This document shows, in pieces, positions 2,569-63,508 of a stretch of 64,000 bases of DNA; positions within the stretch are counted from its first letter, which is position 1, and every line of letters starts with the position of its first letter. The position numbers and the translations under genes are program-made. The notes beneath the pieces are model-generated. The model did not search any database and was not told where the DNA came from. It saw only the letters and a program-made list of their open reading frames with translations. The stretch comes from Escherchia phage Stokescottia, in the sequence record OR896820.1. One strand, written 5' to 3'.

Positions 2569-3364
2569 AAGGTCTATCCCCTAAATGAGCTTCTACACGA
2601 GCAATAAAATCAGGATCACTGAAAGCATCTACCGCACCTTTACTCCAGTAAGGGATACCGCGTTCTTCCAGCTGGTACATCTCACTACGAGTCATACCTT
2701 GATAGCCCGGTTCCACCGCTAGGGCACTATCATAGTAGTTAACAACCATTAGCTTGGCAGCAGTCAAATTAAGAACAGGAAATAATTCCCAGTAGAAATT
2801 AATTACTTGGTTAGAGCAACCAACCACAATGATCATATCTTGACTGGTAATACCATCAAAAATATTGTACATCTCCGCATATGCTGGAGCATGCTCTCCA
2901 AAGAAGATTACATTAGGTTTAACCCATTTATAATCATCTGGATCAATAGAATTGTATCCTACATCAATAATCCGTTTATTGCTACTATTGTAGCTATCAG
3001 CTACAACAACCTCTTTTAAATATCCGTGAATGTGCAGAATGTCACTATGTGAAACGCCAGCACGCTCAATAAGGTCATCAACGTTGGTAGTCAAGTTTAC
3101 TACTTGACCTGGATATTGTTTATACCATTCACCAATACGCAAATGCGCAAGATTGGGTTCAACAGTTTTTAGCTCTTCACGACGCTTGTTGTAAAACATA
3201 TGGGTTTTATGATAAAAATTACCACGAAAGGCATGAATATTACATACTTCTTCTAGATCATAATCATCCCACAGTGCTTTACCACTAGCAGTATCAGTAC
3301 GAAAAGCTCGTACACCACTTTCAACACTCAAACCTGCACCGCTAATAATAATTAATCTACGCAT
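2549..3364 (-). CDS. Sir2-family (sirtuin-like) NAD-dependent protein
   Basis: Motifs ISGAGLSVESGVRAFR, TTNVDDL, HIHG, VVGCS in the canonical Sir2 order. Confidence 0.7.
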   Translation of the reverse strand: MRRLIIISGAGLSVESGVRAFRTDTASGKALWDDYDLEEVCNIHAFRGNFYHKTHMFYNKRREELKTVEPNLAHLRIGEWYKQYPGQVVNLTTNVDDLIERAGVSHSDILHIHGYLKEVVVADSYNSSNKRIIDVGYNSIDPDDYKWVKPNVIFFGEHAPAYAEMYNIFDGITSQDMIIVVGCSNQVINFYWELFPVLNLTAAKLMVVNYYDSALAVEPGYQGMTRSEMYQLEERGIPYWSKGAVDAFSDPDFIARVEAHLGDRPYVSGNK

Positions 3365-56937: not shown

Positions 56938-58608
56938 ATGATTATTTCCGCAGAAAAACAAACCGTTATCCTGAAAATGGCCGCTGATTTCAATTTCTAC
57001 GGTAAACGCCTGCGCGCCACTAAATTGGAAGTTTGTGACGATATTTCGAAAGCGGTATACGATACTACTAAACACTCCACCACTATCTGCGACTGGCTGG
57101 AAGCAAATAAACCAGCGAAACCGAAAGCGGCAAAAGTAGCAAAAGCCATTAAAAACGATGAGCGCCCCGAAGCGGCTGGGATTGTTTCTAGTACCGTGGA
57201 ACAGTGGGAAGTAAAACAAGGTAAACGTTTTATTATTACGTCGATTCAAAATAATACTTTCCCGCATAAAAACTTTTTAGCCGCGCTGGAGCAATATGCT
57301 AAATTTATCGGCGCTGATTTGCTTGTTTCTAAGTATATTTATAATAAAAACGGATTCCAAAATGGGGAAGGTGCTGATGGGATCAAATATGATCCCGCTT
57401 TCGATAAATATATTTGCAGCAAAAACGTGTTTTTAAATAACCGCCGTTTCGCTTTCATGGCTGAAATTAATGTTTTGCCAACCGCAGATTATCCGCTTTC
57501 TGGATTTGCAGAAACTGCAACGGCTTTAAATATCGAGGGTCTGGCAATTGGTCACGCTAAAATCACCGCCGAAAGCGTGCCAGCTTTAAAAGGTGAAGTA
57601 GTGCGCCGTATGTATTCAACCGGAACGGCAACGCTCAAAAACTACATTCAGCAGAAAGCAGGACAGAAAGCGGAAGCACTTCATAATTTTGGCGCGCTTA
57701 TTGTTGAGTTCGACGACGACGGGGAGTTTTTTGTTCGCCAGCTTGAAACAATGGACGAAAGCGGCATGTTTTACGATTTGAATATTTGCGCCACTCCTTC
57801 GGGATGTTTTGAAACGTCGGGGCATGTTTTAGGCTTGCAGTATGGCGATATTCATGCAGAAAAACTAGATGAGGCTTGCGCTCAAGCGTCTTGGGGTCAT
57901 GGTGATACTTATGGGCTTGTGGATATTCTCAAACCGAAATATCAGTTTGTACATGATGTGCATGATTTTACATCCCGCAATCATCATAACCGCGCTTCTG
58001 GTGTATTCCTAGCGAAACAGTACGCCGCCGGACGTGATAAGGTTATTGATGATCTTATCGATACGGGGCGCGTGCTGGAATCAATGGAGCGTGATTTTTC
58101 TCAAACAATCATTGTTGAATCAAATCACGATTTGGCGTTATCCCGTTGGCTGGATGATCGAAATGCTAACATCAAAGACGATCCAGCAAACGCCGAACTA
58201 TATCACAGCCTAAACGCTGCAATCTATGCGGCTATTGCAAAGCAGGACGATACTTTCAACGTGCTAGATTATGCCTTGCGTAAGGTAGCAGGTTGTGAAT
58301 TTAACGCCATTTTCCTGACCACTGACCAATCGTTTAAAATTGCAGGCATTGAATGCGGCGTACACGGTCACAACGGCATAAACGGCAGCCGTGGCAATCC
58401 TAAGCAGTTTAAGAAATTGGGCAAGTTAAACACTGGTCATACTCATACGGCAAGCATTTACGGCGGCGTATATACCGCTGGCGTAGCAGGTAGTCTGGAT
58501 ATGGGTTACAACGTTGGCGCGTCAAGCTGGACGCAAACCCATTTAATTACATACGCAAACGGTCAGCGCACTTTGATTGACTTTAAGAATGGTAAATTCT
58601 TTGCGTAA
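56938..58608 (+). CDS. A1: A1-like pre-early protein with C-terminal metallophosphoesterase domain
   Basis: 556 aa; C-terminal half has GDIHAE, HDVHD, SNHD, GVHGHNG, TGHTHT blocks in calcineurin-like order; size matches what I recall for T5 A1. Confidence 0.55.
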   Translation: MIISAEKQTVILKMAADFNFYGKRLRATKLEVCDDISKAVYDTTKHSTTICDWLEANKPAKPKAAKVAKAIKNDERPEAAGIVSSTVEQWEVKQGKRFIITSIQNNTFPHKNFLAALEQYAKFIGADLLVSKYIYNKNGFQNGEGADGIKYDPAFDKYICSKNVFLNNRRFAFMAEINVLPTADYPLSGFAETATALNIEGLAIGHAKITAESVPALKGEVVRRMYSTGTATLKNYIQQKAGQKAEALHNFGALIVEFDDDGEFFVRQLETMDESGMFYDLNICATPSGCFETSGHVLGLQYGDIHAEKLDEACAQASWGHGDTYGLVDILKPKYQFVHDVHDFTSRNHHNRASGVFLAKQYAAGRDKVIDDLIDTGRVLESMERDFSQTIIVESNHDLALSRWLDDRNANIKDDPANAELYHSLNAAIYAAIAKQDDTFNVLDYALRKVAGCEFNAIFLTTDQSFKIAGIECGVHGHNGINGSRGNPKQFKKLGKLNTGHTHTASIYGGVYTAGVAGSLDMGYNVGASSWTQTHLITYANGQRTLIDFKNGKFFA

Positions 58609-59453: not shown

Positions 59454-60188
59454 ATGAATAAAGCTATTATTAATTCTTTCCGTAATTTCCCGCATATTTC
59501 CCGCGTCATGATTTGGGATTTAGACGGCACTATCATTAATTCTTTCCATCGTGTAGCGCCTTGCTTTGATAGTGAGGGCAATTTAGATTTAAATAAGTAT
59601 AAAAATGAAGCCTGCAAACATCATTTAATAATGCAAGATACTTTATTGCCATTGGTTGAATATATGCGCCAGTGCATGAATGACGCAAATACTTTAAACA
59701 TTATTTGCACCGCTCGATTGATGAGCAAGTCGGATTACTATTTCTTGCGCAAACAAGGATTGCGAGGGCGTGGAAATAGCAATATCCGCGTGTTTTCCCG
59801 CGATACACTGCACAAATATTTTGAGGCTGATAAAGTTAGCGAAATATACCACAGCAAAGACGCAGTTTATAAATCTTATTACTTTGAGCTATTTAAACAG
59901 CTATATCCGAATGCTGATTTTACAATGATTGACGATCATAAAGGCGTGCTATCAGCGGCGGCATCATACGGGTTTAAAACGCTGGACGCGCAAGCCGTTA
60001 ACGATATTCTATCAATCGGCGTGGCATTGATAGGTGAAACCTTTATCGATGAATCTCTCGACGATGATAATGATTATCAGTTCCTAGCTGATCGCTTGAA
60101 ATTATGTTGGGAAAGTATGACCGAAGAAGAACGCGCAGAATATAGTTGCAGCCCGCAACAATATATTGAGAAATTAAAAGTTGCGTAA
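59454..60188 (+). CDS. dmp: HAD-family phosphatase (5'-deoxyribonucleotidase Dmp-like)
   Basis: N-terminal MIWDLDGTIINS matches HAD motif I; 244 aa in a pre-early-like context; symbol by analogy only. Confidence 0.45.
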   Translation: MNKAIINSFRNFPHISRVMIWDLDGTIINSFHRVAPCFDSEGNLDLNKYKNEACKHHLIMQDTLLPLVEYMRQCMNDANTLNIICTARLMSKSDYYFLRKQGLRGRGNSNIRVFSRDTLHKYFEADKVSEIYHSKDAVYKSYYFELFKQLYPNADFTMIDDHKGVLSAAASYGFKTLDAQAVNDILSIGVALIGETFIDESLDDDNDYQFLADRLKLCWESMTEEERAEYSCSPQQYIEKLKVA

Positions 60189-60201
60189 TAATTAAAGTTG
60201 A

Positions 60202-60239
60202 AATAGTCACGGTGTGTAACGATAACATGCCGTGACTAT
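60202..60239. terminator. palindromic hairpin between convergent genes
   Basis: ATAGTCACGG...CCGTGACTAT inverted repeat. Confidence 0.5.
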
Positions 60240-60345
60240 TAGCTTGCTAAGTACCGGGCGGTAATGAGACTCATTCTCATCTGGGAGGCCACTGGACACA
60301 CCTCCATGTGTAATCTTATGAAATTTGGCAAAAGTCAAATTAGCG

Positions 60346-60561
60346 CTATTTACGGGCTGACTGCCTGAGAATGGACTGCCATAGATGGTCAGTCTTAACA
60401 AGATTATTGATGTACTCAATAGCTTCACCAAATCTCATAAATCCTTCTGGAATTTCCGAAGACTTAGGAAAAACTTGTAGCATCCCTTGGGTGATACCCA
60501 TCTTTTCAAGTTCTTCTTGAGTTATCTCAAACTCCCCGAAAAACCGCCCGAATTCTTTCAT
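60346..60561 (-). CDS. hypothetical protein
   Basis: Start at 60561 (MKEFGRFF). Confidence 0.4.
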   Translation of the reverse strand: MKEFGRFFGEFEITQEELEKMGITQGMLQVFPKSSEIPEGFMRFGEAIEYINNLVKTDHLWQSILRQSARK

Positions 60562-60803
60562 GAGCTTCTCCTGTCTACTGGCTTGTCTCCTGATTCTGAC
60601 ATACGAAATCTCTTCCGCGACGCCCGAGATCCATCCGACCACTCCCGTTCAAACTCCGCACGTTTCTCGTCAAACTTCCGCTCCCTTTCCGCAATCTCCC
60701 GCGACACTTCCGCAATATATTTACGATGCTTGTTGATTGCCGCAGTCGTCCCGAAAACTCCCGCGAGTATCCCGATAATAAAAGCAATTATAATACTAAA
60801 CAT
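60558..60803 (-). CDS. membrane-anchored basic protein
   Basis: N-terminal TM helix then Arg/Glu-rich tail. Confidence 0.45.
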   Translation of the reverse strand: MFSIIIAFIIGILAGVFGTTAAINKHRKYIAEVSREIAERERKFDEKRAEFEREWSDGSRASRKRFRMSESGDKPVDRRSS

Positions 60804-60990
60804 CTAATTCCCTCTCAATTTGCAGAATACGGGTGCTATCACAACGTTGCAGTAGTACTAGCTTTTCTAGAGCAACCTGTTGTTGTTTTACCTGGGCTTC
60901 TAGAGTTTTTAGGCGGAGATACACGATACGAGAGACAATGAGGATTACCCAGACTAATATTACTATTAGTGTAACTGTCACTTCCACCAT
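60796..60990 (-). CDS. membrane-anchored coiled-coil protein
   Basis: N-terminal TM helix then coiled coil. Confidence 0.45.
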   Translation of the reverse strand: MVEVTVTLIVILVWVILIVSRIVYLRLKTLEAQVKQQQVALEKLVLLQRCDSTRILQIERELDV

Positions 60991-61398
60991 TTACGCTTCT
61001 CCAATAGTAAGGTTTCAATTCTAGCTAAGTGATTATCTAAAATACACTGCCCAATAATCACAATCCCTAGTAGCGCAATAATTACCCATTCCATTAAATC
61101 CACCCCGCCATAGCTGCTAGCCAAAAACCTACGAAAATAAAGAATAAGATAGTTCCGAATCCGAAACTATTTACCCAGCTATCATATACCTCTCCACGTC
61201 TGCTCTTTCTTTTATTTGACATATCTTTCATGCTCCAGTAAATATGATATTTTAAAATATTTTATAGTTTGTGCATAACCAACCATGCTCGTGACTTCCT
61301 AGAGGGCTTTTCACTTTCTTGCATAGTGTTTTCTGCCAATATACCATCCAAAAAATAAAAAATTTAGTTTACTTGGATGTCTTTTTGTTTTATACTAA

Positions 61399-61665
61399 TT
61401 ACAAGTAATTAGATTGTTCTAGTTTAAATTTACAATCACCATATTTAAGATCAAACTGACTGAGATCCCACCACCCAAACTTAGTACGGAGCTGTACTAC
61501 TGGAAAGCGATCTCCCTTAATACGAACTTTTTGAACCTTGAGGCCGTAATGTTCTTCTCCCGCACCACCAAAAGATTTTACAAATCCCGTACAAAATGGT
61601 TTAGGAGCAGGTGCACAACCAGATAACATAACTGCGGCAACTAGTGCAATCACAAACTTTTTCAT
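61399..61665 (-). CDS. llp: small lipoprotein (Llp-like lytic-conversion/superinfection-exclusion candidate)
   Basis: Signal peptide with lipobox LSGC; 88 aa; divergent from the adjacent receptor-binding gene. Confidence 0.5.
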   Translation of the reverse strand: MKKFVIALVAAVMLSGCAPAPKPFCTGFVKSFGGAGEEHYGLKVQKVRIKGDRFPVVQLRTKFGWWDLSQFDLKYGDCKFKLEQSNYL

Positions 61666-61750
61666 ATTTATCTCTCCATTTCTAATTTATGAATCTATTA
61701 TAGCAAAATAGAGGGATGAAAGCAAATACATTTTTATAATAGGAGATTAT

Positions 61751-63508
61751 ATGGGTTTTTTCGCTGGAAAATATAGCGATGGTAAGACCGTACTATCTTT
61801 AAATACTGAATCTGGTGGTGACATTAATCGTCACTATAGTCCAAATAATAATAGTATTTTTCATAGTGATATGCCATTTGTCCTAGTTGATGGTACCTAT
61901 GAGGCTCCATTAGGCAATGCTGGAAATGGGTTTTTTGTATGTCAGATGCCCTCTGACATAATAAATATTAAATCTAATGACCCAGGTAGAGTTATACTAA
62001 CTGCTATTGAGATTAATGGTACTCATAGGGCTTTTCTTAACGGTACTCAGAGTAAGGTGGGTCAAACTATAGTTGCTACTCAGGCAGACCCTTTTAGGTC
62101 TTTTGCTAGTGTTTCCCAGACCAGTGGATTTGCCTTTGGTAATAGCCTGGCATCTGGTACATATAACTATAACCCATCTATAGGTCATGAAGAATCTATT
62201 TCTAGGAATGGTACTGGGGGAACCACCCTACATAGTACTTATCACGGTATAGTTAGGCCAGGTGGAGGAGCTCCCGTAGGGGTTACTGTTGCAGAAGCTT
62301 TTTCACAGCTGGGTTTTCCTACTAATAGTAGTACAGTACCTATAGATGGTAATAATCCATACTACTGGGATCCAGGATGGATGTCTCCTTTAGGGTCAGC
62401 ACACAGAGGACACGATTGGTTCTATGTTTGTAACTCCAATATACGTGGGTATGGTGGGGTAAGACAAGGTCTTCCTGGCAATGTAAATACTATGTACCAC
62501 GATGGGGGTAACAGATTTGTTTGTAGGGGTTCTACAACTAATTTAGCTAATCAATCTGGTAATGCTACAATATTACAGGATTGGTATAACATAACTCCTA
62601 CTAAGGTTATTTGGTATGTACTTAATCTGAGATATTCTAATGGTAATATGGGTATCTCTGGTAATCCTTTTACTGGTTCAGATATTCTTATCTCTCCCTC
62701 TAACTTCATAATTAAAGGAGTAAGTCTTCCTAATACTGGATATAAGTTTATTAACCAGAATGCTTTCGGTAACTTAGGCTATAGGCCAGATATGGAATAC
62801 GTCGGAAATAACGCAGCGTACACTGGAGCCTTCGGGGATACCACTGCAAGGTGTGAACTTGTAGGCTCTAGTAATGGAAGTTTATGGTCTCCTGTAGACT
62901 ATGGAGGGGCTAAGTCTCAAATTAGTATTTACAAATTCGGAGCGGGTAAGCAATGGTACGTAAACTCAAGTAATAATACTATTGGTAATGAACATGGTGT
63001 TGTTTGGGGGCCTTCTTCAGTTCCTCTGAGACTTTTTAGTGGAAATGTTGGTAGTTCTTACATGGGGGATGATATTACCCCTTACTACCCAGGAACTGGA
63101 GATAGATATGTGGCTTTATCTACTATTGGACTAGGTATTCCAGGAGGTAATGCTACTGTTATTCTTACTACTGAAGTTATATCTGGTAATCTTAATTGTG
63201 CTGGTGTTCCAGCTAATACATGGAATAATGGTGTATTTCAGGTGCAAGGTAGAAGGGCTTATAGTTATAGTAATGGAGATGCAGTATTCCACCAGATTTT
63301 AACATTACCTGTAGGTTACTTAGTACCATTTCATACTACATCTGCATTTAGATATACACCTAATAACGCACTGAGTAGAAATAGTTTCATATATACAGTT
63401 AAAAATCTAGGAAATGGAAATGTAGAGTTAGGGGTAGTTATGCACGTAAGTTTAGGTAGTGCAGTTTTCCTACCTAGATTAAGAGTAACAGTTCAACGCC
63501 TTACCTAA
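61751..63508 (+). CDS. putative receptor-binding tail protein
   Basis: 585 aa, Gly/Asn/Ser/Thr-rich with no catalytic motifs; paired with the divergent lipoprotein gene. Confidence 0.5.

What the first reader, a model, noticed from the sequence alone, without database searches (positions are those of the whole stretch)
60346..61230. Cluster of small membrane-anchored proteins between the pre-early-like module and the lipoprotein gene
Several short minus-strand ORFs with single N-terminal TM helices followed by charged or coiled-coil tails, two in the ORF track (60558..60803, 60796..60990) plus shorter ones my own translation suggests near 61020-61230, lie just upstream of the Llp-like gene. 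Such proteins are typical of lysis control, superinfection exclusion or injection-channel components.
Basis: inference. Interest (0 to 1): 0.35.

Follow-up and report, generated by a model that had tools for sequence, protein, structure and literature searches.

The report
T5-like phage small membrane-protein operon
This is the T5.159–T5.162 gene cluster of a T5-like phage: four tiny, conserved inner-membrane proteins plus one small soluble accessory protein, real and transcribed genes that are already catalogued, appear dispensable in the laboratory and have no known function.

Summary
Window 60346–61222 (minus strand) carries five tightly overlapping small genes. They lie 3' of the llp receptor-blocking lipoprotein gene and just outside the terminal-repeat/pre-early module (dmp, A1). 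Four are orthologues of T5.159–T5.162, annotated in T5 as "contains single transmembrane domain". I call them A (42 aa, C-terminal TM), B (38 aa), C (64 aa) and D (81 aa); B–D have an N-terminal TM and a helical, charged tail. The fifth, E (71 aa), has no TM and is an accessory gene found in about 61 phage records.

All five match full-length PHROG families of unknown function and evolve under purifying selection (pN/pS 0.25–0.53; the sense frame is the lowest of six). D occurs in 443 phage records, essentially every Escherichia/Salmonella T5-like phage. It was found nowhere else, neither among 1.84 billion representative proteins nor in 185,579 bacterial and archaeal genomes.

Published data show that the Bas33 orthologues are transcribed only after second-step DNA transfer. 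The T5 orthologues score "Not Fit" in a CRISPRi-ART screen. The K/R bias predicts cytoplasm-facing tails.

The function remains unknown. My best guess (about 0.3) is a receptor-independent superinfection-exclusion or membrane-conversion module that acts alongside Llp. The cluster is ordinary and already catalogued, so interest is low.

The parts
61697..61725 (-). Putative llp promoter: TTGCTT (61725-61720), a 17-nt spacer, then TGcTATAAT (-10 at 61702-61697). It probably also drives the small-ORF cluster.
   Evidence: Read directly from the sequence. It sits where T5 annotates the llp promoter. No promoter of 9/12 or better was found between llp and ORF A, and hand inspection there found only a 7/12 match.
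61399..61665 (-). llp: 88-aa lipoprotein with an LSGC lipobox, the Cor/Llp-type receptor-blocking protein. It is the gene immediately 5' of the cluster.
   Evidence: phrog_1119 'Cor superinfection exclusion protein', E 1.8e-26. Pfam LPAM_1 lipoprotein attachment site. 100% identical to L6jm gp155.
61262..61324 (-). 20-codon remnant (MQESEKPSRK...) of an acidic ORF of about 103 aa that is intact in some relatives (L011, L012, L032). A deletion of roughly 190 nt removed most of it here.
   Evidence: Alignment of the llp-A spacer and ORF lists of the relatives.
61094..61222 (-). ORF A, orthologue of T5.159. 42 aa: basic N-terminal head (MSNKRKSRRGEVYDSW) followed by a C-terminal TM. Predicted N-in, tail-anchored.
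   Evidence: phrog_8596, E 7e-32. 96% identical to T5.159. The first ATG (61231) is not conserved, the second is. TM at residues 22-38. pN/pS 0.26.
60978..61094 (-). ORF B, orthologue of T5.160. 38 aa: N-terminal TM, then the near-invariant GQCILDNHLARIE motif. Here it is 3 aa longer than usual because the usual TGA stop reads TGG.
   Evidence: phrog_6369, E 2e-25. 92% identical to T5.160. TM at residues 3-19. pN/pS 0.25. A 51-aa paralogue, B2, exists in some relatives (hhalign probability 95%).
60796..60990 (-). ORF C, orthologue of T5.161. 64 aa: N-terminal TM followed by a heptad-like helical tail that ends in QIERELDV.
   Evidence: phrog_5851, E 4e-30. 75% identical to T5.161. Found in 193 phage records and absent from about 8 of the 32 loci. 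pN/pS is 0.36 for the tail and 0.78 for the TM.
60558..60803 (-). ORF D, orthologue of T5.162. 81 aa: N-terminal TM with invariant G11xxxG15xxG18, a long E/R/K-rich helix, a basic SRASRKRFR stretch, and a variable last ~15 aa.
   Evidence: phrog_6447 'membrane protein', E 1e-48. 100% identical to L6jm gp158. Found in 443 phage records. AF2 models a single helix over residues 2-70, mean pLDDT 70. pN/pS is 0.22 for the tail and 0.45 for the TM.
60346..60561 (-). ORF E. 71 aa, soluble and acidic, with no TM. An accessory gene in the variable slot between D and the terminal-repeat boundary. It is absent from T5.
   Evidence: phrog_20937, E 8.5e-49. 100% identical to L6jm gp159. Only 14 protein clusters and 61 phage records. 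pN/pS 0.26 from 3 variants. The AF2 model is unreliable: pLDDT 64, pTM 0.32.
60189..60345 (.). Non-coding spacer between the cluster and the convergent dmp gene. It contains the position that corresponds to the terminal-repeat boundary of relatives: about 60298 by the T5 annotation, about 60190 by the chee24 annotation.
   Evidence: Alignment with T5, chee24 and L6jm, combined with the repeat_region features of those records. This phage's own boundary cannot be determined from a single copy.

Best explanation
**Shown.** Window 60346-61222 (minus strand) is the T5.159-T5.162 cluster of a Tequintavirus-like phage, plus one accessory ORF.
- It consists of five overlapping, probably translationally coupled genes. 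They lie 3' of llp and just outside the terminal repeat.
- A, B, C and D are very small single-pass membrane proteins.
- The genes are under purifying selection.
- In the relative Bas33 they are transcribed only after second-step DNA transfer.
- In T5 their knock-down has no measurable cost.

**Predicted.** The K/R distribution places the soluble parts in the cytoplasm: N-out/C-in for B, C and D, and N-in for the tail-anchored A. Almost nothing would be exposed to the periplasm. For C and D, the tails are more conserved than the anchors.

**Inferred, low confidence.** The proteins are inserted into the inner membrane of the infected cell. There they would act as a receptor-independent second layer of T5 'lytic conversion' alongside Llp. 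Through TM-TM contacts (D has an invariant GxxxGxxG motif) and their conserved tails, they would interfere with the inner-membrane step of genome entry by a superinfecting T5-like phage. That step would be the channel formed by the tape-measure protein pb2. This is how T4 Imm and HK97 gp15 are reported or proposed to work.

The confidence given below refers to this inferred mechanism. Identity and architecture are above 0.9.
For: **Identity**
- Full-length PHROG matches for all five ORFs.
- Orthology and synteny with T5.159-162 between llp and the right terminal repeat.
- The T5 record itself says 'contains single transmembrane domain' for these genes.

**Coding**
- Sense-frame pN/pS is 0.26 (A), 0.25 (B), 0.53 (C) and 0.29 (D), the lowest of the six frames in each case. 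E is 0.26.
- Every start has a Shine-Dalgarno-like sequence, and the genes overlap by 1-13 nt.
- GC skew is negative across 60300-61650, as expected for minus-strand genes.

**Architecture**
- One TM each in A-D, with K/R residues concentrated on the tail side.
- D is modelled as one long helix.
- Tails are more constrained than anchors in C (0.36 vs 0.78) and D (0.22 vs 0.45).

**Expression**
- Bas33 (HildyBeyeler) genes bas33_0187-0191 are D, C, B, B2 and A.
- At 20 min after infection, llp has TPM 219/127, B2 162/137, C 462/408 and D 22/13. All are about 0 when infection is blocked after first-step transfer (PMC13250531 Dataset S1).

**Accessory role**
- T5.159-162 and llp are all 'Not Fit' in the CRISPRi-ART screen (PMC11879866 supplement).
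- C, B2 and E are present in some relatives and absent from others.

**Independence from the receptor**
- A-D are 75-96% identical between this phage and T5, yet the two Llp proteins show no detectable similarity.

**Analogy**
- T4 Imm is a small inner-membrane protein that binds the tape-measure protein and blocks genome translocation (bioRxiv 10.64898/2026.03.06.709160).
- HK97 gp15 is a small inner-membrane protein that blocks DNA entry without touching the receptor (PMC3594210).
- No strong promoter lies between llp and A, so the cluster is probably co-expressed with llp.
Against: - **No experiment.** No experiment links these genes to exclusion. Four full-text searches aimed at these genes or at T5 small membrane proteins found no paper on their function.
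- **No sequence link.** They have no sequence similarity to Imm, gp15/YebO or any other Sie family.
- **Tail conservation.** The most conserved parts are predicted to face the cytoplasm. That is not what a simple blocker of a periplasm-to-membrane channel would need, and it would equally suit a cytoplasmic or host partner.
- **Llp may suffice.** Llp alone is generally held to account for T5 exclusion at the receptor.
- **Weak context argument.** Guilt by association with llp is weak. In a Klebsiella T5-like phage the same position holds unrelated TM proteins and no lipoprotein.
- **Insensitive screen.** The CRISPRi-ART T5 screen also calls genes annotated as virion or lysis genes 'Not Fit', so its negative result says little.
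Confidence: 0.3

Rival explanations
1. Modulators of host physiology or counter-defence. The small proteins would bind host inner-membrane proteins through TM-TM contacts and their cytoplasmic tails. Candidate targets include proteases, division or envelope-biogenesis factors, transporters and membrane-bound abortive-infection effectors. Binding would tune the infected cell or neutralise a defence. Such a benefit would show only in natural hosts.
For: - Cytoplasm-facing tails are predicted, and they are more conserved than the anchors.
- D has an invariant GxxxGxxG motif in its TM.
- The genes appear dispensable on a laboratory K-12 host.
- Content is mosaic and variable: B2, C and E come and go, and recombination breakpoints fall inside the cluster.
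- D gives weak, sub-threshold resemblances to membrane-anchored host factors: LapA_dom 22.5 bits, ZapG-like and FtsL.
Against: - No family reaches threshold, and there are no PADLOC or anti-defence matches.
- A and D are essentially universal in Escherichia/Salmonella T5-like phages. That suggests a core task for this lineage rather than a counter to a sporadic defence.
- No partner is known.
Confidence: 0.25
2. Control of lysis timing. One or more of the proteins, especially D (small, one TM, highly charged C-terminus), would act as a holin-like or antiholin-like factor that modulates the T5 holin.
For: - D and C have the generic holin/antiholin look: under 100 aa, one TM and a strongly charged hydrophilic C-terminal domain.
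- Mild or no fitness effect on knock-down fits a fine-tuning role.
Against: - The cluster is not near the lysis genes. In T5, lys (T5.040) is at 19.9 kb and the cluster is at 110.8-111.5 kb.
- No holin, antiholin or spanin family matches.
- In Bas33 its transcript levels are similar to llp, which T5 literature describes as early. That is not the pattern expected for a late lysis cassette.
Confidence: 0.15
3. Components of, or helpers for, the phage's own DNA injection or second-step transfer channel.
For: - They are membrane proteins.
- They lie next to the pre-early A1/A2/dmp module, which controls second-step transfer.
Against: - The genes lie outside the terminal repeat.
- In Bas33 they are not transcribed when infection is arrested after first-step transfer. 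They therefore cannot act on the genome that encodes them.
- More distant Demerecviridae that keep dmp and, in the Vibrio phage, a 'DNA transfer protein' lack A/D homologues.
- Knock-down is tolerated, whereas A1 and A2 are the top 'Fit' genes.
Confidence: 0.03
4. Spurious or decaying ORFs: non-functional filler between llp and the terminal repeat.
For: - The ORFs are very short.
- Read counts for A and B in Bas33 RNA-seq are almost zero.
- C, B2 and E are dispensable, and a neighbouring ORF has clearly decayed to a 20-codon remnant.
Against: - Purifying selection is specific to the sense frame.
- Reading frames are intact in 19-29 distinct protein variants per family.
- Shine-Dalgarno sequences and start/stop overlaps are conserved.
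- D is present in 443 records.
Confidence: 0.03

Closest known systems
Phage T5 genes T5.159, T5.160, T5.161 and T5.162 (PHROGs 8596, 6369, 5851, 6447), and L6jm gp156-gp159
   Same: - Same order and strand, and same position between llp and the right terminal repeat.
- 75-96% amino-acid identity to the T5 genes.
- D and E are 100% identical to L6jm gp158 and gp159.
- Same single-TM architecture.
   Different: - This phage adds ORF E, which T5 lacks.
- The last ~15 residues of D differ from T5.162.
- B is 3 aa longer.
- A, B and C are of a different lineage from those of L6jm (80%, 69% and absent), so the cluster is a recombinant mosaic.
- None of these genes has a known function.
T4 Imm (superinfection immunity protein)
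   Same: It is a small inner-membrane protein made by a virulent phage during infection. It blocks genome translocation by a second phage by binding the tape-measure protein, independently of the receptor. This is the mechanism proposed here.
   Different: - No sequence similarity was detected.
- Imm is modelled with four helices, including a hydrophobic core of helices 2-4. The proteins here each have one TM.
- Exclusion by the T5 proteins has never been tested.
HK97 gp15 (YebO-like moron, superinfection exclusion)
   Same: It is a very small inner-membrane protein that prevents DNA entry without blocking the outer-membrane receptor. Its specificity is set by the incoming phage's tail.
   Different: - gp15 is expressed from a prophage as a moron and has bacterial YebO homologues.
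- D has no bacterial or prophage homologue in 185,579 genomes.
- No Pfam match of any kind reaches threshold.
Holins and antiholins (for example small one-TM holins with charged C-termini)
   Same: Small size, one TM and a highly charged C-terminal tail.
   Different: - Not located in or near the lysis cassette.
- No family match.
- No evidence of lethality or a timing function.
N-terminally anchored cytoplasmic helical proteins of bacteria (LapA/YciS, ZapG/YhcB, FtsL)
   Same: The architecture of D, an N-terminal TM followed by a long charged helix, gives weak hits to these families: LapA_dom E 1e-4, ZapG-like E 0.03 and FtsL E 0.015.
   Different: All hits are below the curated cut-offs (22.5 vs 28 bits, 14.7 vs 33.5, 14.9 vs 50). 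The matches cover the TM and generic charged helix only, so they reflect composition, not membership.

Membership tests
T5.159-T5.162 orthologous groups (PHROG 8596 / 6369 / 5851 / 6447; E = PHROG 20937) | Full-length match to the family profile | tested here: met
   E-values are 7e-32, 2e-25, 4e-30, 1e-48 and 8.5e-49. Each match covers essentially the whole profile.
T5.159-T5.162 orthologous groups | Conserved position and order: same strand as llp, between llp and the terminal repeat/dmp | tested here: met
   Annotated records of T5, L6jm, IME178, chee24 and Bas33. tblastn map of 32 loci.
T5.159-T5.162 orthologous groups | One predicted transmembrane segment per protein, as in the T5 annotation | tested here: met
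   A has its TM at residues 22-38, B at 3-19, C at 4-20 and D at 1-17, all with negative summed dG. E has none and is not part of the T5 set.
Cor/Llp receptor-blocking lipoproteins | Signal peptide with a lipobox cysteine (L-x-G/A-C) | tested here: not met
   Only the neighbouring llp has one (MKKFVIALVAAVMLSGC; Pfam LPAM_1 hit). None of A-E has a lipobox (sequences).
Known superinfection-exclusion families (T4 Imm, HK97 gp15/YebO-like, and similar) | Sequence membership in the family profile | tested here: not met
   The Pfam-A scan at E<=1 returned only sub-threshold LapA_dom, ZapG-like, FAM184, UPF0154, DUF7299 and ECSCR. NCBIfam and PADLOC gave nothing relevant. That Pfam holds models for Imm and YebO is from memory.
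Known superinfection-exclusion families | Expression blocks DNA entry of a superinfecting phage without blocking adsorption | not testable with these tools
   This needs plating-efficiency, adsorption and DNA-entry assays.
Holin / antiholin | Encoded with, or acting on, the lysis cassette (endolysin, holin, spanin) | tested here: not met
   The neighbours are llp, the RBP gene, dmp and A1. In T5, lys (T5.040) lies at 19.9 kb and the cluster at 110.8-111.5 kb.
Holin / antiholin | Small membrane protein with at least one TM and a charged C-terminus, and with timed membrane permeabilisation | tested here: inconclusive
   The architecture is met for C and D. The permeabilisation function cannot be tested here.
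Pfam LapA_dom (PF06305) | Score at or above the gathering threshold (28 bits) | tested here: not met
   D scores 22.5 bits, E 1.1e-4, over the TM plus the first charged turn only.
i-spanin (Rz-like) | N-in/C-out anchor with a periplasmic coiled coil long enough to span the periplasm, paired with an o-spanin lipoprotein | tested here: not met
   The K/R bias predicts C-in tails. The tails are only 19-64 aa. The adjacent lipoprotein is the Cor/Llp family member. Topology is predicted, not measured.

The most novel reading that the evidence does not exclude
The constant position hard against the terminal-repeat boundary may be functional. A-D would assemble into a hetero-oligomeric platform in the inner membrane. 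Its cytoplasmic parts, D's E/R/K helix with its basic SRASRKRFR stretch and A's basic head, would tether phage DNA, or the membrane-bound A1/A2 transfer machinery, to the membrane. That could end the pre-early phase or organise replication and packaging. It would be a new class of phage micro-protein scaffold rather than an exclusion factor.
Probability: 0.05. Interest if true: 0.6.

Novelty: already known. Interest (0 to 1): 0.22.

Why it matters
These genes are essentially universal in Escherichia/Salmonella T5-like phages, a group widely used for biocontrol and as a model system. They still have no assigned function, even though the T5 annotation already flags them as single-TM proteins. 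If they proved to be a receptor-independent exclusion module, T5 'lytic conversion' would have two layers: Llp at the outer membrane and micro-proteins at the inner membrane. That would matter for phage-cocktail design, because it would cause cross-exclusion between T5-like phages that use different receptors. As it stands, the finding re-identifies a catalogued cluster of hypothetical genes. It does not open a new question.

Tried and rejected
- **Curated family searches.** Pfam, NCBIfam and PADLOC gave nothing above threshold.
- **Remote homology for D.**
  - The word-indexed search found only T5-like phage proteins.
  - The exhaustive profile search of 1.84 billion representatives gave five hits, all in the same family.
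  - The scan of 185,579 bacterial and archaeal genomes found no relative.
- **Fold-based annotation.**
  - The AF2 model of E is too poor for a fold search (pLDDT 64, pTM 0.32), so none was run.
  - D is a single helix with nothing to compare.
- **Paralogy among the small proteins.** B and B2 are paralogues (95%). B vs C (24%) and every other pair are not significant.
- **Positional analogues in distant relatives.** The Klebsiella T5-like phage has TM plus helical-tail ORFs at the same position. No homology to A-D was detected. The Vibrio phage has nothing similar.
- **Antisense ORF.** The 106-aa plus-strand ORF at 60487..60807 was rejected. Antisense frames have pN/pS of 0.41-1.32, against 0.29 for the sense frame of D.
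- **Structured RNA.** No Rfam hit at E<=1.
- **Internal promoter.** The TTGAGA-17-TATTAT site (60818-60790) spans D's start codon, so a transcript from it would lack that codon. I treat it as a chance match.
- **Literature.** No paper in the library names T5.159-162 in its main text. Only supplementary tables of two papers carry data on them.
Full report
**Where we are**

The window is a T5-like phage (Demerecviridae, Tequintavirus-like), read as the reverse complement of the standard T5 map.
- The pre-early genes are on the plus strand: A1 (56938-58608), two small ORFs, and dmp (59454-60188).
- A divergent pair follows: llp (61399-61665, minus) and a 585-aa receptor-binding protein (61751-63508, plus).
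- Megablast of 60200-61700 finds 418 phage records, nearly all named as Escherichia or Salmonella phages. All five whose annotation I read (L6jm, IME178, chee24, T5, Bas33) are Tequintaviruses. In each of them the same stretch lies between the llp gene and the right terminal repeat/dmp.

**The observation**

Five minus-strand ORFs fill 60346-61222.

| ORF | Coordinates | Size |
|---|---|---|
| A | 61094-61222 | 42 aa |
| B | 60978-61094 | 38 aa |
| C | 60796-60990 | 64 aa |
| D | 60558-60803 | 81 aa |
| E | 60346-60561 | 71 aa |

- Each start follows a Shine-Dalgarno-like purine run. Successive genes overlap by 1, 13, 8 and 4 nt, the signature of translational coupling.
- For A, the first ATG (61231) is not conserved among relatives. 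The second ATG (61222) is conserved and matches the 42-aa T5.159 annotation.
- B is three residues longer than usual. The usual ATGA start/stop overlap reads ATGG here, and the same substitution changes codon 2 of C from Met to Val.
- A-D each have one hydrophobic segment with a negative summed Hessa dG. E has none.
A is anchored by its C-terminus. E is soluble. The cluster is 3' of llp, not upstream of it.

**Are they real genes?**

- All five match PHROG families over their full length, with E-values from 1e-25 to 1e-49.
- In the 32 related loci that span this region, A and D are always present. B, or a 34-aa variant B', is nearly always present. C is missing from about eight loci. E is present in only three other distinct loci.
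- In each of the four families the annotated frame has the lowest pN/pS of the six frames: A 0.26, B 0.25, C 0.53, D 0.29. E is 0.26 from three variants.
- These values come from non-independent pairs in ungapped alignments, so they are indicative rather than exact.
- The antisense 106-aa ORF over D is an artefact of D's E/R-rich codons.
- GC skew turns negative exactly over the cluster and llp.
- No Rfam family matches the region.

**Distribution**

| Gene | Phage records (tblastn) |
|---|---|
| D | 443 |
| dmp at >=80% identity | 441 |
| C | 193 |
| E | 61 |

- D is therefore effectively universal in the Escherichia/Salmonella T5-like group.
- The D hits include almost no Klebsiella and no Vibrio phages, although hundreds of those carry dmp-like genes.
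- A word-indexed search of 5.8 billion proteins returns 86 clusters. All the named ones are T5-like phage proteins or come from Salmonella assemblies with phage-sized contigs.
- An exhaustive profile search of 1.84 billion representatives returns five proteins, all from the same family.
- A scan of 185,579 bacterial and archaeal genomes finds no relative.
- E has only 14 clusters.
- These are lineage-restricted orphan families.

**Architecture**

- Positive residues lie after the TM in B, C and D and before it in A. The predicted topologies are N-out/C-in for B-D and N-in, tail-anchored, for A. All soluble parts would then face the cytoplasm. This is a prediction, not a measurement.
- D is modelled as one continuous helix over residues 2-70, with mean pLDDT 70.
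- D has invariant G11, G15 and G18 in its TM and a near-invariant E/R/K-rich tail that ends in SRASRKRF.
- In C and D the tails are more constrained than the anchors: 0.36 vs 0.78 and 0.22 vs 0.45. The tails are probably the specific working parts.
- B and the optional 51-aa B2 are paralogues (hhalign 95%). No other pair is significantly related.

**Plasticity**

- This phage's cluster is a mosaic. D, E, dmp and llp are 100% identical to L6jm. A is only 80% identical and B 69%, and L6jm lacks C. A-C resemble other phages at 95-98%.
- The slot after D holds nothing in T5, E in this phage, or one of at least three HNH homing endonucleases of 157-179 aa. D's last ~15 residues change with the occupant.
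- Upstream of A, a ~103-aa acidic ORF that is intact in three relatives is reduced here to a 20-codon stub.
- The position corresponding to the terminal-repeat boundary falls between about 60190 and 60298, depending on whose annotation is followed.

**Expression and dispensability (published data)**

Bas33 is phage HildyBeyeler. Its genes bas33_0191 to bas33_0187 are A, B2, B, C and D, and bas33_0192 is Llp.

RNA-seq values 20 min after infection (PMC13250531 Dataset S1):

| Gene | TPM (two replicates) |
|---|---|
| llp | 219 / 127 |
| B2 | 162 / 137 |
| C | 462 / 408 |
| D | 22 / 13 |
| downstream homing endonuclease | 525 / 444 |

- All of these fall to about 0 when daunorubicin arrests infection after first-step transfer. 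The genes are therefore not pre-early.
- A (129 nt) and B (108 nt) have only 1-2 reads each. I suspect this comes from how reads are assigned to very short overlapping genes, but I could not check it.
- In the transcriptome-wide CRISPRi-ART screen of T5, T5.159-162 score -3.6 to -4.1 (KS p 0.24-0.91) and are called 'Not Fit', as is llp (PMC11879866 supplement).
- That screen also calls genes annotated as virion or lysis genes 'Not Fit', so the negative result is weak evidence.

**Promoter**

A good extended -10 promoter precedes llp: TTGCTT, 17 nt, TGcTATAAT (61725-61697). Nothing comparable lies in the llp-A spacer. Together with the similar Bas33 transcript levels, this suggests co-transcription with llp. 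That is an inference.

**What it does**

No family assignment is possible.
- Pfam, NCBIfam and PADLOC give only sub-threshold hits driven by composition, such as LapA_dom at 22.5 bits against a 28-bit cut-off.
- The model of E is too poor to search with.

I commit, at about 0.3, to a receptor-independent exclusion or membrane-conversion role alongside Llp.
- The genes sit with llp and are probably co-expressed with it.
- They are dispensable in the laboratory, as llp is.
- They are conserved regardless of which Llp family the phage carries.
- They resemble in kind T4 Imm, which binds the tape-measure protein and blocks translocation, and HK97 gp15.

The main weakness is that the conserved parts are predicted to be cytoplasmic. 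That suits the rival of a host-directed or counter-defence modulator equally well (0.25). Lysis-timing control (0.15) is weakened by the ~90-kb distance from lys in T5. A role in the phage's own injection is essentially excluded by timing and by position outside the repeat (0.03). Junk ORFs are excluded by selection and conservation (0.03).

**Comparison with the known, and verdict**

The cluster is the orthologue of T5.159-T5.162, which the T5 record already annotates as single-TM proteins. Identical or near-identical proteins are in public phage records. The finding is real and correctly described in outline. It is already catalogued, and it gives no new handle on function. Interest is low (0.22).

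Noticed in passing
window 60558-60610 (3' end of D); L007, L009, L010, L024-L026, L029-L031, L033: The last ~15 codons of D change with whatever follows it. The tail is RMSESGDKPVDRRSS before ORF E or a 157-aa HNH gene, REFRPEHRFDDPSMR before nothing, KIDGKS/KINGKS before a 165-aa HNH gene, and AKVSDEE before a 178-aa HNH gene. Codon ~66 of D looks like a hot spot where homing-endonuclease genes insert and bring their own replacement 3' end.
   Followed up: partly
window 61262-61324; L011 2508-2749, L012 2036-2347, L032 2323-2637: Three relatives carry a ~103-aa acidic ORF (MQENEKPFQEP...) between llp and ORF A, although in L011 it is broken into two shorter ORFs. Here and in most relatives only its first ~20 codons survive, after a deletion of about 190 nt. 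T5 keeps a different fragment from the 3' end.
   Followed up: partly
Bas33 (L037) genes bas33_0187-0191; PMC13250531 Dataset S1: Read counts along what should be a single transcript are erratic: A 2, B2 479, B 1, C 1704, D 104 and HNH 5363. This could come from assigning reads to very short overlapping genes, or from real RNA processing or internal starts. It is unresolved.
   Followed up: no
window 60978-61222 compared with L001 (L6jm) 2971-3212: D, E, dmp and llp are 100% identical to Salmonella phage L6jm. A is 80% identical and B 69%, and L6jm has no C at all. Recombination breakpoints therefore fall inside this ~900-bp cluster.
   Followed up: partly
L035 (Klebsiella phage Riker_ER52) 4072-4758: At the equivalent position, divergent from the RBP gene, this distant T5-like phage has no lipoprotein. 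It has two ORFs of 74 and 152 aa, each with an N-terminal TM and a long helical tail. They show no detectable homology to A-D, so the architecture and position are conserved without sequence conservation.
   Followed up: partly
L002 3108-3263, L007 2555-2710, L027 2555-2710, L037 1629-1784: Some relatives carry an extra 51-aa paralogue of B, here called B2 (MEWVIIGIF...LSRIETLLEERK), inserted between A and B. It is a tandem duplication with an internal expansion. This window lacks it.
   Followed up: yes
window 60189-60345: The spacer between E and the convergent dmp contains an inverted repeat, GTCACGG-N17-CCGTGAC, followed by a T-rich run. It may be a terminator for the cluster. The published terminal-repeat boundaries of T5 and chee24 map to different points within this spacer (about 60298 and about 60190).
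   Followed up: no
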